In this document: positions 47,950 through 59,743 of the stretch, piece by piece
How the letters are laid out: every line of letters starts with the position of its first letter
How positions within the stretch are numbered: the first letter of the stretch is position 1
Origin: a virus
Strand: one strand, 5' to 3'
DNA: 64,000 nt
IMG/VR virus record: IMGVR_UViG_3300047160_035982
Location: 13 to 64,012 of that record
The notes under the pieces: model-generated
Told to the model about the DNA's origin: nothing
The model's input: only the letters and a program-made list of their open reading frames with translations
The model's database searches: none
Translations under genes and position numbers: made by a program

Positions 47950-49101
47950 ATGCACGACCGATATTCCGATACGCTCGACCACCCGAGGACTCTGCTGCCG
48001 ACGACTCAACTGCCCGATTTCAGCCGTAATTTCGCAGAGCTCGAGAAGCGTTGTAAACGCCCCTATTCGATCCTCAAGGTTGTCCGCGCCCTTTCGGACA
48101 AGCCGTCGCGCTTAGAAGGTTTCGAGGCTGAAGTCGACCAAGAGCTGAAGTCGTTGAACCCACGGCGCAGCGTAGATGGAATATTGATCCCGCTCGAGGC
48201 ATTAGCAGTATCGCGCCGTGACTTGACGACAGGCGTGCTGCCAGTGATCCAAACGACAATTTCACCAGATGAGCCTATCCCGTTTCTGCGGGTGAAATCT
48301 GTCTGCGCCCGTTGCGGAGCGACGCTGCTCGACGGGTTGACTGGCGGCAATATTTCACTGCCTAGAGCTTATGCGACTGCAGGTGCTGGGTGGTACGGCG
48401 AGGTCGGTCCGGTCCCGAGCGCTGACCAGTCTCTCGATAACATTACACTTTCGCCGAAACTGATCGCTGGCTCGACGATCGTCTCGAATCAATTACTCGC
48501 GCAAAGCTCGCTCGATATCGAGAGATTTGTTACCCGCGATATCAGCGACGCAATCGCGGTCGCGGTCGACCAGGCTGCGCTCTACGGCGCAGGCTCGGCG
48601 ACGGTGCCAAAGGGGATCATGAGCTACGCGGCAAACGGCGCAGGCAACTACAGCTACGGGCTGCGATCCGCTAGTCAGTCTTTTGGCGGAGCGGCAACTT
48701 GGGCTGCTGTCTTGAGCTTCGAAAAAACGCTCGAAGACGGGCGAATCCAGAACGATGGCACTTTCACCTTTGTTTCGACATCAGCAACGCGCACAAAATG
48801 GCAGCAAATCGCCAAGGTCGCGACTTACCCCGAGTTTCTATGGCAACAGCGCGACGACGAGTTGGACGGTCGCGTAAACGGCCGGCGCGCAGTTTCGAGC
48901 GCGCAAATCAGCGGCGACATCGTGCTCTGCGGAAAATTCTCTGAAATGATTCTTGCGAACTGGTTAGGAGTCGAACTTTTAGTGAACACGTACAGCCGCG
49001 CGATCAACGCTGAGACCGTGATCCTTGCCACGATGCTGTGCGACGTCGGGATTAGATATCCATTAGCGTTCTGCGCATCACTGGACTCAGGGGCTCAGTA
49101 A
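47950..49101 (+). CDS. HK97-fold major capsid protein (satellite)
   Basis: GATLLDGLTG.NISLPR, WYGE, ITLSPKLIAG...SNQLLAQSSLDIE, AVDQAALYG. Confidence 0.88.
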   Translation: MHDRYSDTLDHPRTLLPTTQLPDFSRNFAELEKRCKRPYSILKVVRALSDKPSRLEGFEAEVDQELKSLNPRRSVDGILIPLEALAVSRRDLTTGVLPVIQTTISPDEPIPFLRVKSVCARCGATLLDGLTGGNISLPRAYATAGAGWYGEVGPVPSADQSLDNITLSPKLIAGSTIVSNQLLAQSSLDIERFVTRDISDAIAVAVDQAALYGAGSATVPKGIMSYAANGAGNYSYGLRSASQSFGGAATWAAVLSFEKTLEDGRIQNDGTFTFVSTSATRTKWQQIAKVATYPEFLWQQRDDELDGRVNGRRAVSSAQISGDIVLCGKFSEMILANWLGVELLVNTYSRAINAETVILATMLCDVGIRYPLAFCASLDSGAQ

Positions 49102-49108
49102 GATCTTA

Positions 49109-49240
49109 GGAAAAACGAAAAGGCCAGCTTTTACACTGACCTTTTCTCCATGCATTGCCTCGCCAGACCGCGCCCAGCCATACCACGCCAAAGCGAGCCT
49201 TGCCGTGACGTCTTCAATATCGACTCGTTTGAATCACGCT
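49109..49240 (-). ncRNA. Orphan (NN-GGY)10 pentamer tract with flanking hairpins (putative guide D)
   Basis: Ten RCC-NN pentamers at 49157-49206; hairpin 49117-49146 whose loop CCAGCTTTTACACTGA resembles 58021-58037. Confidence 0.75.
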
Positions 49241-57940: not shown

Positions 57941-58007
57941 ATGTCATGAAATACTTCACGAGATCGTTGAGACTCGTCAGCGACGCGTACGCACTTGTTA
58001 GGACCCC

Positions 58008-58373
58008 AGAATGCCGCCGACCAGCTTGTTAAACTGATCGGCGGACTTCCATGCCAACGCCTTGCCTTGCCCGACCACCCCAGGCCTCACCCGGCCTCAC
58101 CTTGCCCGGAATGCCGCTGTCTGCTGAACAAGCCAAACAGCGGACTTCCATGCCATGCCTCGCCTTACCGGGCCGGACCCCGCCGCGCCACACCTGGCCG
58201 CGCCAAGCCGTACACTGCCCTGCCTTGCCGCGGAATGCCGCCCACTCTTTGCGAATGAGCGGACTTCCATGCTTTGCCTTGCCCGACCACGCCGCGCCAA
58301 AACGCGCCAAGCCCAACCTGGGCGTGCCTCGCCGGGGAATGCTGCCGACTCTTCCTTTAATCGGCAGATTTCC
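58008..58373 (-). ncRNA. Array of three (NN-GGY)n pentamer tracts separated by four conserved hairpins (putative guide RNA array)
   Basis: Tracts A 58053-58107, B 58152-58231 (16 pentamers), C 58271-58335 (13 pentamers); hairpins 58008-58050, 58108-58149, 58232-58268, 58336-58373. Confidence 0.88.
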
Positions 58374-58384
58374 ACAGCCTGACT

Positions 58385-59095
58385 TCACGCGTTCACTAAC
58401 TTTTGACGTTTCATCCATTGAGTTAAAGCCTGCTCAAGTTTCAGTAATGCCTCGACTGTGTCGTCGTCATCAGCCTCGATGTAATCGTCAGTAAGCAGGA
58501 TTGTTAGATCATCAGCCAACTTAATAACCTTTTGTCCACTGAGCGAGCGTTGGCGTTCGTCGATTGCTTTCACTTCTTTTTTGATCCACTGCTCATCCTT
58601 GCTCTGCATCTTGATCTGCAGCGGTTCAACTAGAGGCGCTTTTAAAACAACAGGTTTGACTGCGTCCGAGTCACTCCACACGCCGCGTTCACTAATAGCT
58701 TTCTCGAATTCAGAAACCGGGATGCGCACGATCTTGGCAATCTCCTCTGAAGAAAACTTCATGCGGGTTAACTGCATCGCTGCACTAAGCTTTTCCTGAT
58801 AGCTGAGGCCGTGACCGTGTGTGGCGTTGTCTTTAACGGCTAAAGGGAACCATTGTGTTTCGAGCTCTTTGGTTACGATTGCAGCGATCCGCGGCAACTT
58901 CCTTCGTCGGTGCGCCTCGTATCGGTGACGGCCTCCGATAATCACATAACGATCATCGCGTTTACCAACGAGAATCGGTGGCAAAACATCGCCTACGCGC
59001 AAGGCATCGAGCAGCGACTCGATGTGTCTCCAACTAACTTGATTGCGCGGATAGATCGTCTCATCAATCAAAATTCGGTCGATGCTGATATACAT
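58385..59095 (-). CDS. ParB/Srx N-terminal domain protein
   Basis: IYPRNQVS...LPPILV...YVIIGGRHRYEAH...NATHGHGLS. Confidence 0.8.
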   Translation of the reverse strand: MYISIDRILIDETIYPRNQVSWRHIESLLDALRVGDVLPPILVGKRDDRYVIIGGRHRYEAHRRRKLPRIAAIVTKELETQWFPLAVKDNATHGHGLSYQEKLSAAMQLTRMKFSSEEIAKIVRIPVSEFEKAISERGVWSDSDAVKPVVLKAPLVEPLQIKMQSKDEQWIKKEVKAIDERQRSLSGQKVIKLADDLTILLTDDYIEADDDDTVEALLKLEQALTQWMKRQKLVNA

Positions 59096-59098
59096 AGG

Positions 59099-59743
59099 TC
59101 AGGCTGCCTTTCTCTTTTTAGATTTCTTTTCTTCAAGAATCGTCGGCTCTGAATCGAAACCGACAATCTCGGGTTCAGGAATAAAAGCTTCTTCGCGCTG
59201 CGGCAACAACTCGAAGCGTTTTAGGTAATACTGCCCAAATGGGCCTTTCTTCTCTGGTCGAAAATCGCAGACGCCATTGAGCACTCCTGCAGTTTTGATT
59301 ATTTGCGGCCCAAATTTCTGCATGATGGGGATCGGAATCCATTCATCGCGGAAGTGCAGCTCAAACGTCACCTCCCACGGCCAGATCTTCGGTCGGCTAT
59401 GTGGCACGCGATTTTTCTGAATGACGACTGAGCGCGTATCGATCTTGTACTCTGTCGTGTTCAACGAAACGAATTCTGGCGTGATCGCGACACAACCGAT
59501 CATCGCTGTCGACATTTTCAACTTGCCGACTTTATAGTTGCCAGCAGCCTTAATGAAAGACCGGTAGAACGCTACCCCAGGAATCGCCAACGAGGATTTG
59601 TCGTCGGTCCAGTATAAGCGCTTTCTTGCTTCCTCAGCTGGATCGTAACTGACTTGCTTAACGCTCGTCTCACTGTTCATCGAGCTGATGTTATTCAATA
59701 AAGCGGGGGTCAACCCGCAAACTGTAATTTTGATTTGTCTCAT
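59099..59743 (-). CDS. RAMP/Cas7-like RRM protein (Vipr-like effector)
   Basis: ITVCGLTPALL (beta1), LAIPGVAFYRSFIKAA (IPG-helix), RPKIWPWEVTFEL, Gly-rich loop AGVLNGVCDFRPEKKGPFGQY. Confidence 0.75.
   Translation of the reverse strand: MRQIKITVCGLTPALLNNISSMNSETSVKQVSYDPAEEARKRLYWTDDKSSLAIPGVAFYRSFIKAAGNYKVGKLKMSTAMIGCVAITPEFVSLNTTEYKIDTRSVVIQKNRVPHSRPKIWPWEVTFELHFRDEWIPIPIMQKFGPQIIKTAGVLNGVCDFRPEKKGPFGQYYLKRFELLPQREEAFIPEPEIVGFDSEPTILEEKKSKKRKAA

What the first reader, a model, noticed from the sequence alone, without database searches (positions are those of the whole stretch)
58259..58864. Guide C decodes to the adjacent ParB-like gene
Seen: C matches codons CTC GAA ACA CAA TGG TTC CCT TTA GCC GTT AAA GAC AAC (58864-58826) at 9/13 dinucleotides, 18/20 nt over the first ten. 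It is sense to the mRNA, whereas B and D are antisense to the capsid mRNA, which favours a dsDNA target over an mRNA target. Inference: autoregulation of the operon, or attack on the same operon in rival elements.
Basis: partly seen in the sequence, partly recalled or inferred. Interest (0 to 1): 0.85.

Follow-up and report, generated by a model that had tools for sequence, protein, structure and literature searches.

The report
VIPR guide aimed at sibling vap gene
The "guide" is a real guide RNA of a recently described phage RNA-guided DNA-silencing system (VIPR), and its near-match to the neighbouring ParB-like gene is not chance: it most likely marks a weapon aimed at closely related rival elements, from which the element's own gene copy has mutated away.

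Summary
Read by the published VIPR code (vrRNA GGY-NN units; DNA target NN-x), the 12 clean units of tract C (58333-58274, minus strand) match the adjacent ParB-like gene at 58861-58827. The match is 20/24 informative bases (9/12 dinucleotides), in frame, with the skipped base on the wobble position. It is the best site for this guide in the whole window (shuffle p about 0.0007; 0.013 if a 13th unit is included).

The locus is a VIPR system, already described in three 2026 preprints. The 214-aa gene has a RAMP/Cas7 fold and is homologous to SUSP1 Vipr (hhalign 99.9%). GGYNN arrays lie next to its homologues, on the same strand, in about 90 of 120 loci found by the DNA pattern alone.

Two of the three units that mismatch the element's own gene (GC = Ala, CG = Arg) equal the family consensus. 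A third, matching unit (TT = Leu) is specific to the element's own subclade. The cognate target is therefore an inferred sibling or ancestral allele, ETQWFALAVR[KN]N. I found no such allele in any collection.

Guide B shows the same pattern, and sibling capsid alleles carrying all three "missing" residues do exist. Attack on rivals is favoured; autoregulation is neither supported nor excluded. The scan has noted such arrays on DNA of at least 44 other genomes.

The parts
59099..59743 (-). vipr: 214-aa stand-alone RAMP/Cas7-like protein (Vipr)
   Evidence: AF2 pLDDT 92.5. Foldseek top hits are Csm3, Cmr4 and type VII Cas7, E about 1e-6. hhalign of its family profile against SUSP1 Vipr gives 99.9%, E 3e-32. 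Homologues adjoin GGYNN arrays in about 90 of 120 pattern-found loci.
58385..59095 (-). vap-type accessory gene: 236-aa ParB_N-domain protein. It carries the site matched by guide C.
   Evidence: Pfam ParB_N 3.7e-7 and PHROG ParB-like. It is conserved directly after vipr in L006, L007, L009, L130, L132, L134 and L135. It is unrelated to SUSP1 Vap1.
58827..58861 (-). Near-cognate site of guide C inside vap (codons E78-N89, motif ETQWFPLAVKDN).
   Evidence: 20/24 informative bases, frame 0, wobble skipped. The homologous site is the top hit in all seven vap homologues.
58334..58378 (-). Leader hairpin at the start of the array (variant of the tail hairpin)
   Evidence: Inverted repeat I4. Fold -25.3 kcal/mol, z -4.5.
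58274..58333 (-). vrRNA 1 guide tract ('guide C'): 12 pentamers, 10 exact GGY-NN plus GCCCA and GTTTT
58230..58273 (-). 3' tail of vrRNA 1: AGCAT junction plus hairpin GGAAGUCCGC..GCGGCAUUCC with a 2x2 internal loop
   Evidence: The stem interior covaries between copies. C-A mismatches on the plus strand become G-U on the minus strand, read directly from the sequence.
58150..58229 (-). vrRNA 2 guide tract ('guide B'), 16 units
   Evidence: Near-cognate site in the capsid gene at 48719-48673: 23/32, p 0.003-0.006.
58107..58149 (-). 3' tail hairpin of vrRNA 2
   Evidence: Inverted repeat I5; fold.
58057..58106 (-). vrRNA 3 guide tract ('guide A'), 10 units. No site above chance in the window.
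58005..58056 (-). 3' tail hairpin of vrRNA 3
   Evidence: Inverted repeat I3; fold z -3.0.
49155..49204 (-). Orphan (solo) vrRNA tract behind the capsid gene, 10 units, followed by a hairpin plus U-run
   Evidence: Best site 15/20 at 48920, p about 0.3.

Best explanation
The locus is a VIPR system carried by an integrase-bearing, capsid-encoding satellite-like element. Its parts are vipr (59743-59099), a ParB_N-type accessory gene (59095-58385) and a co-transcribed array of three vrRNAs, each a run of GGY-NN units closed by a hairpin tail.

By published mechanism, Vipr protomers polymerise on the vrRNA, bury each GGY and present each NN. The filament binds dsDNA whose sequence follows NN-x, and this blocks transcription.

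Guide C (vrRNA 1) is cognate to the codons of the most conserved box of the ParB-like vap gene, in an allele inferred as E-T-Q-W-F-A-L-A-V-R-[K/N]-N. That allele matches the state I infer, by informal parsimony, for a stem or sibling of this element's own lineage. Binding there in a rival would block the rival's vap and, where the array lies downstream as it does here and in L130, its vrRNAs as well. That would disarm a competing sibling element.

The element's own copy has changed three codons within the footprint (Ala to Pro, Arg to Lys, and position 89). This puts four mismatched bases in the tail-proximal half of the guide, where R-loop formation starts, so self-silencing is probably avoided.

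Shown:
- the anatomy of the locus
- homology to Vipr
- the statistical reality and the reading register of the match
- the coincidence of the mismatched units with family consensus

Inferred:
- that a rival carrying the cognate allele exists now
- that the self site is not bound
- the roadblock consequence
For: VIPR identity:
- RAMP fold.
- hhalign to SUSP1 Vipr 99.9%, E 3e-32.
- A GGYNN x9 DNA pattern alone retrieved 120 or more viral loci. About 90 carry a homologue next to the array, with the array on the homologue's strand in all but two.
- Unit composition over 432 tracts is G .97, G .96, Y .98, then variable NN.

The match is real:
- p about 0.0007.
- Period 3 beats periods 2, 4, 5 and 6.
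- It is in frame with the wobble base skipped.

The target is a sibling or ancestral allele:
- In 7 of 7 vap homologues the guide's best site is the homologous codons.
- Units 6 (GC) and 10 (CG) mismatch own Pro and Lys but equal the family's Ala and Arg.
- Unit 7 (TT, Leu) occurs only in the own + L130 clade, which is sister with 100/98 support. Unit 2 (AC, Thr) occurs only in the own gene.
- Two of three mismatched units hitting the consensus has a chance of roughly 0.01 (my estimate: about 1/15 per unit).

Parallel case:
- Guide B's three fully mismatched codons (Ala to Pro, Ala to Asn/Lys, Ser to Leu) occur together in existing sibling capsid alleles..GGP.TWANVLLF.

Precedent:
- vrRNAs aimed at rival VIPR loci match self less well than non-self.
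- R-loops grow 3' to 5' from the tail.
Against: - No contig with the inferred cognate allele was found. I searched IMG/VR, JGI metagenome contigs, GTDB genomes and four soil runs, which hold only the identical allele where they cover the site (X1 and X4).
- The best non-self sites known (L007 and L132 vap, 19/24 = 0.79) score no better than self (0.83).
- Self identity is above the 0.8 cut-off used in the papers. No mismatch-tolerance data are published, so self-binding cannot be ruled out.
- Unit 11 (AA) matches neither the own gene nor any known allele.
- Two units of the tract (GCC, GTT) depart from GGY.
- Expression of the array was not shown. No RNA run holds the locus.
Confidence: 0.55

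Rival explanations
1. Obsolete guide. Guide C once matched a sibling or ancestral vap allele that is now rare or extinct. It persists in the array without a present target, and the near-self match is only a historical trace.
For: No cognate allele was found in any collection searched. Two units are degenerate (GCC, GTT). The sister array in L130 is visibly degenerate and shares no guide with this one.
Against: Ten of 12 units are intact GGY. The tail hairpin is intact and stable. This vap clade is very thinly sampled: about 10 homologues among 5.8 billion proteins. Absence from the databases is therefore weak evidence.
Confidence: 0.2
2. Autoregulation. The Vipr-vrRNA 1 filament binds the imperfect site in its own vap gene. 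This throttles transcription of the 3' part of vap and of the downstream array, giving negative feedback on the system's own dose.
For: Self identity of 0.83 exceeds the 0.8 cut-off used to call natural targets. The site lies upstream of the array in the same transcription unit. Such a high self score is exceptional: 1 of 293 tracts in other VIPR loci reaches 0.8, and that tract has only 10 units.
Against: The mismatches are non-random. They fall where the own gene departs from the family consensus, which is what escape predicts, not maintenance of a site. Three of the six bases in the three tail-proximal units are mismatched, and that is where unwinding starts (inference). The published surveys found no self-targets. 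Guide B shows the same near-self pattern in an unrelated gene (the capsid gene), where feedback makes little sense.
Confidence: 0.15
3. Chance resemblance. The guide's true target lies elsewhere, in an unsampled phage or host, and the ParB hit is a coincidence found after testing several decodings.
For: With 13 units, p rises to 0.013. Short gapped guides often reach 0.75-0.85 somewhere in tens of kb. Pattern searches return many random 20-22/24 hits.
Against: The period-3 rule is not post hoc: it is the published code. With it, p is 0.0007 window-wide. The site is in frame. Independently, the mismatched units equal the family consensus at the homologous codons.
Confidence: 0.1

Closest known systems
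VIPR systems, type II exemplars: Escherichia phage SUSP1 and a Pseudomonas fulva prophage (bioRxiv 10.64898/2026.04.26.720920 and 10.64898/2026.04.26.720927)
   Same: Homologous Vipr protein. vrRNAs of 10-16 GGY-NN units with a structured 3' tail, in an array downstream of vipr-vap, plus a solo vrRNA elsewhere. NN-x targets in wobble register on either DNA strand.
   Different: The accessory gene is a 236-aa ParB_N protein, unrelated to SUSP1 Vap1. 'ParB' does not occur in the main text of the two preprints I term-searched for it. The tail is a simple hairpin with a 2x2 internal loop rather than the SUSP1 pseudoknot. Vipr has Asn where most homologues have the His of the PLLxH motif. The carrier is itself a capsid-encoding satellite-like element. 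Its VIPR type (I-VII) could not be assigned from the text available.
vrRNAs that target rival VIPR loci (vipr gene or vrRNAs) in SUSP1-family phages (bioRxiv 10.64898/2026.10.15.759431)
   Same: The guide is aimed at a component of the VIPR operon of relatives. The self-match is expected to be lower than the match to the rival, which avoids autoimmunity.
   Different: Here the footprint is in the accessory (vap) gene, not in vipr or a vrRNA. The guide sits in a VIPR-positive element. The rival allele has not been observed, and the self score (0.83) is above the authors' calling threshold.
Type III / VII CRISPR Cas7 backbones (Csm3, Cmr4)
   Same: RRM/RAMP fold with a G-rich loop and a thumb. 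The protein polymerises along a guide RNA with a fixed step.
   Different: The step is 5 nt with three bases sequestered, against 6 nt with one flipped. There is no Cas10, Cas11, Cas6, Cas1-2 or CRISPR repeats. The guide is noncontiguous, and the outcome is dsDNA binding and repression.
CRISPR self-targeting spacers tolerated through protospacer mutations
   Same: A guide whose best genomic match is a mutated copy in the same genome.
   Different: No acquisition machinery is known for VIPR. The mismatches here are non-synonymous codon changes, because synonymous changes are invisible to the code.

Membership tests
VIPR (Viral Interference Programmable Repeat) | Stand-alone minimal RAMP protein (Vipr) homologous to published Vipr | tested here: met
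   AF2 and Foldseek give Csm3, Cmr4 and type VII Cas7. hhalign of the 58-sequence family profile against SUSP1 Vipr (KT454805, 28474-29061) gives 99.9%, E 3e-32.
VIPR (Viral Interference Programmable Repeat) | vrRNA tracts of roughly 9-16 tandem GGY-NN pentamers with hypervariable NN | tested here: met
   Tracts of 12, 16 and 10 units, plus an orphan of 10. Family-wide composition is G .97, G .96, Y .98, then variable NN.
VIPR (Viral Interference Programmable Repeat) | Array adjacent to vipr and on the same strand | tested here: met
   The array sits downstream of vipr-vap on the minus strand. In about 90 homologous loci the arrays are on the vipr strand, with two exceptions.
VIPR (Viral Interference Programmable Repeat) | Conserved structured 3' tail after each tract | tested here: met
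   A hairpin follows each tract, with interiors that differ in sequence yet stay paired. z is -2.6 to -4.5 for four of the five folded segments; the vrRNA 2 segment gave z -0.9. It is a hairpin, not the SUSP1-type pseudoknot.
VIPR (Viral Interference Programmable Repeat) | Accessory vap gene with a predicted DNA-interacting function next to vipr | tested here: met
   A ParB_N protein lies 3 nt after vipr. The pair is conserved in at least 8 loci, and homologues occur beside vipr in L029, L093, L104 and L126. Which vap class (1-6) it belongs to could not be determined. It is not vap1.
VIPR (Viral Interference Programmable Repeat) | Targets follow the 1-nt skip rule, mostly with the skip on codon position 3 | tested here: met
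   Guides C and B have significant period-3 sites, both in wobble register. Across 275 tracts of other loci there was no enrichment of self-locus sites, as the papers also report.
VIPR (Viral Interference Programmable Repeat) | vrRNAs expressed, bound by Vipr, and repressing cognate dsDNA targets | not testable with these tools
   No RNA run holds the locus. The DNA runs hold only short contigs.
Canonical CRISPR-Cas | CRISPR repeat-spacer array and cas1/cas2 or effector modules | tested here: not met
   No CRISPR RNA family reached threshold in the window. The neighbouring genes are ParB_N, DUF7168/DUF2786, DUF3102, integrase, HTH, primase and helicase.
ParB/Srx superfamily (for the vap gene) | ParB N-terminal domain with a GxxRxxA-type box | tested here: met
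   Pfam PF02195 at 30.5 bits against a 26.3-bit cut-off. The GGRHRYEA box is visible in the translation. CTPase, nuclease or parS-binding activity was not tested.

The most novel reading that the evidence does not exclude
Guide C and the diverged vap allele form a cis-linked 'weapon plus resistant target' pair. The element silences the vap gene (and the downstream array) of any sibling that still carries the ancestral Ala/Arg box. Its own copy has become immune through non-synonymous changes in an otherwise conserved ParB box. If so, VIPR targeting drives amino-acid evolution of VIPR accessory proteins and marks kin from non-kin among satellites. A variant of this reading is that the residual 0.83 match also gives weak self-feedback.
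Probability: 0.3. Interest if true: 0.65.

Novelty: new member of a known kind. Interest (0 to 1): 0.45.

Why it matters
VIPR was described only in 2026, and natural targets are known for a few clades. This locus adds four things:
- a VIPR carried by a capsid-encoding satellite
- a ParB_N-type accessory gene
- a vrRNA whose footprint lies in the accessory gene of its own family
- sequence evidence that the carrier's own copy escaped by codon changes, the only kind of change the wobble-skipping code can see

If a rival allele is found, it would be a clear natural example of VIPR-driven protein evolution and of self/non-self discrimination without a PAM. The locus also supplies a ready-made pair of near-cognate and cognate sites for measuring mismatch tolerance. 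I found no mismatch-tolerance data in the three preprints.

Tried and rejected
- TRAP-like model. My first idea was that the GGY triplets are binding sites for a ring or filament protein and the NN are mere spacers. I dropped it after the RAMP fold result and the VIPR papers.
- Rfam. The only hit in the window is a tRNA; nothing at the array.
- Self-targeting as a family property. 275 and then 293 tracts of other loci show no enrichment of period-3 self-locus sites.
- Reciprocal or cross targeting within the ParB-associated clade. Only guide C hits any vipr-vap operon.
- Search for the perfect allele:
  - The IMG/VR pattern scan gave 14 hits, all out of context. The best, in L137 and L146, lie antisense to an unannotated 657-aa ORF and score at the level expected from pre-selection.
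  - Metagenome and GTDB pattern scans gave 24 hits. None is ParB-like. The 22/24 hit in L155 is not in wobble register with either overlapping ORF.
  - An IMG/VR scan with the ParB alignment found nothing.
- Soil runs. Four were laid on the locus and show only the identical allele where they cover the site.
- DNA of sibling capsid alleles. Four exact-protein look-ups failed, and IMG/VR holds only capsids of 33% identity or less. Guide B's sibling match is therefore shown at the protein level only.
- Relatives search. It is not available for a virus record.
- The first search for related loci with Vipr alone found nothing.

Full report
**Anatomy**

The region lies in an integrase-bearing element whose genes run on the minus strand:
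- integrase, 63376-62210
- DUF3102 and DUF7168/DUF2786 genes
- a 214-aa gene, 59743-59099
- a ParB_N gene, 59095-58385
- a non-coding array, 58380-58005
- an HTH/AlpA-like gene, then primase-like and AAA_25 helicase-like genes

On the minus strand the array reads: leader hairpin, tract of 12 pentamers, hairpin, tract of 16, hairpin, tract of 10, hairpin. Each pentamer is GGY followed by two variable bases.

The hairpins share the arms GGAAGUCCGC / GCGGCAUUCC with a 2x2 internal loop. Their interiors differ in sequence yet stay paired. The C-A mismatches seen on the plus strand become G-U pairs on the minus strand. Both facts point to an RNA made from the gene strand.

A fourth, solo tract lies behind the capsid gene at 49204-49155.

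**What it is**

A scan of IMG/VR for nine consecutive GGYNN units returned at least 120 loci. An HMM built from homologues of the 214-aa protein found a relative in about 90 of them. The relative sits within a few hundred bases of the array, and the array is on its strand in all but two loci.

Over 432 tracts the unit composition is G 0.97, G 0.96, C/T 0.98, followed by two nearly free positions. Tract lengths are mostly 8-20 units.

An AlphaFold2 model from a 58-sequence alignment (pLDDT 92.5) matches Csm3, Cmr4 and type VII Cas7 chains at E about 1e-6, and Cmr6/RAMP models in AFDB.

Notes from this scan used the name 'VIPR', which led to three 2026 preprints. They describe Viral Interference Programmable Repeat systems as follows:
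- Vipr is a minimal RAMP that polymerises on vrRNAs made of GGY/NN repeats with a structured 3' tail.
- It recognises dsDNA in which each NN is paired and one base is skipped, usually the codon wobble base.
- Targets occur on either strand, and no PAM is needed.
- The outcome is transcriptional repression.
- An adjacent accessory gene (vap) contributes.

The family profile built here aligns with SUSP1 Vipr at 99.9% probability, E 3e-32. The locus is therefore a member of this known kind. Its accessory gene is a ParB_N protein unrelated to SUSP1 Vap1. The vipr-ParB pair is conserved in at least eight metagenomic loci.

**The observation**

The 12 units of tract C carry GA AC CA TG TT GC TT GC GT CG AA AA. 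The ParB-like gene at 58861-58827 reads GAA ACA CAA TGG TTC CCT TTA GCC GTT AAA GAC AAC. That is 20 of 24 informative bases, in frame, with the wobble base skipped.

Its counts are otherwise reproduced.

This is the guide's best site in the window. Target periods of 2, 4, 5 or 6 do worse. Against 3000 shuffles, p is 0.0007 (units) or 0.0003 (bases). With an extra 3' unit it is 0.013.

Guide B also has a significant site, in the capsid gene at 48719-48673: 23/32, p 0.003-0.006, also in wobble register. Guide A and the solo tract have none.

Such self scores are unusual. Among 293 tracts of other VIPR loci, only one (10 units) reaches 0.8 on its own contig. The papers report none.

**What the match means**

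In all seven vap homologues for which I hold DNA, guide C's best site is the same homologous codons. They encode the most conserved box of the family, consensus E-x-Q-W-F-A-E-A-V-R-L-N.

The informative point is where the guide disagrees with its own gene:
- Unit 6 is GC (Ala). The own gene has CCT (Pro).
- Unit 10 is CG (Arg). The own gene has AAA (Lys).
- Ala and Arg are the family consensus at those positions.
- Unit 7 (TT, Leu/Phe) matches the Leu found only in the own gene and its sister L130. The two group with 100/98 support.
- Unit 2 (AC, Thr) matches only the own gene.

The guide therefore spells E-T-Q-W-F-A-L-A-V-R-[K/N]-N. That is the state I infer, by informal parsimony over the tree and the alignment, for a stem or close sibling of this element's own lineage. 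Parsimony says the gene changed, not the guide.

L130 has also changed the same two codons (to Arg and Glu). Guide B repeats the pattern: its three fully mismatched codons (Ala to Pro, Ala to Asn/Lys, Ser to Leu) occur together in existing sibling capsid proteins..TFGGP.TWANVLLF...

The papers already report three related facts. [quoted passage not shown]

**Mechanism proposed**

The Vipr-vrRNA 1 filament binds the vap box of sibling elements that keep the Ala/Arg allele, and blocks transcription there. In elements built like this one and L130, that also cuts off the downstream vrRNA array.

The carrier escapes because four informative bases differ, three of them in units 10-11 of 12. Published structures show unwinding starting at the tail and moving 3' to 5'. 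The idea that tail-proximal mismatches are the most protective is my inference; I found no mismatch data in the preprints.

**Limits**

The cognate allele was not found in any of these:
- IMG/VR
- metagenome contigs
- GTDB genomes
- four soil runs, which hold the identical element at low depth

The clade is very thinly sampled, with about ten homologues. Self identity (0.83) exceeds the 0.8 cut-off the authors use, so weak self-binding (autoregulation) remains possible. An obsolete guide is also possible.

**Verdict**

The system is a new member of the known VIPR kind, with a ParB_N accessory gene. Rival targeting with self-escape is the best-supported reading (0.55). The alternatives are an obsolete guide (0.2), autoregulation (0.15) and chance (0.1).

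Noticed in passing
window 48673-48719 (site) and 58150-58229 (guide B): Guide B matches the satellite's own HK97-type capsid gene at 23/32, with a core of 17/18, in wobble register. Its three fully mismatched codons are all present in sibling capsid alleles (..GGP.TWANVLLF..) of about 52-54% identical capsids from JGI and ENA metagenomes. Guide B therefore probably targets other members of this large capsid family.
   Followed up: partly
window 49155-49204 and 48892-48920: The solo vrRNA behind the capsid gene has its best site at 48920, scoring only 15/20 (p about 0.3). On its own this is not distinguishable from chance.
   Followed up: partly
L009:7326-7800: A distant vipr + ParB-like pair is followed by a 475-nt GGYNN array. 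Its units are separated by GAGGACRTGG / GGGACGAGG motifs instead of hairpins. It lies next to IS21-like transposase genes and a group II intron reverse transcriptase.
   Followed up: no
loci (length histogram): Tract lengths are very uneven. Most have 8-20 units, but single uninterrupted runs of 54, 56 and 140 pentamers occur. These are far longer than the maximum of about 30 repeats mentioned in the cryo-EM preprint.
   Followed up: no
L021 and L080: These are the only two loci where the GGYNN tracts lie on the strand opposite to the Vipr homologue.
   Followed up: no
window 59690-59743 (Vipr N-terminus): In this ParB-associated subclade the conserved PLLxH motif reads ..ALLNN / ..YLMNN. The His aligned with the residue reported to contact G1 in P. 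fulva Vipr is replaced by Asn.
   Followed up: no
window 39875 (minus strand): A 10-unit guide of the unrelated locus L009 matches the neighbouring prophage region of this window at 17/20. Given 24 guides tested against 8 loci, this is probably chance.
   Followed up: no
window 57995-59743: Fragments identical to this locus occur in Logan contigs of soil metagenomes from 22 studies, so the element or its host is widespread in soils. Other contigs in the same runs carry the same hairpin with different tracts, that is, other arrays of this type.
   Followed up: partly
L130:1400-1938: The sister element's array has the same leader and tail hairpins. Many of its units are degenerate (GGA, AGC, TGC heads), and it shares no guide with this window. 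Guides therefore turn over much faster than the proteins.
   Followed up: partly
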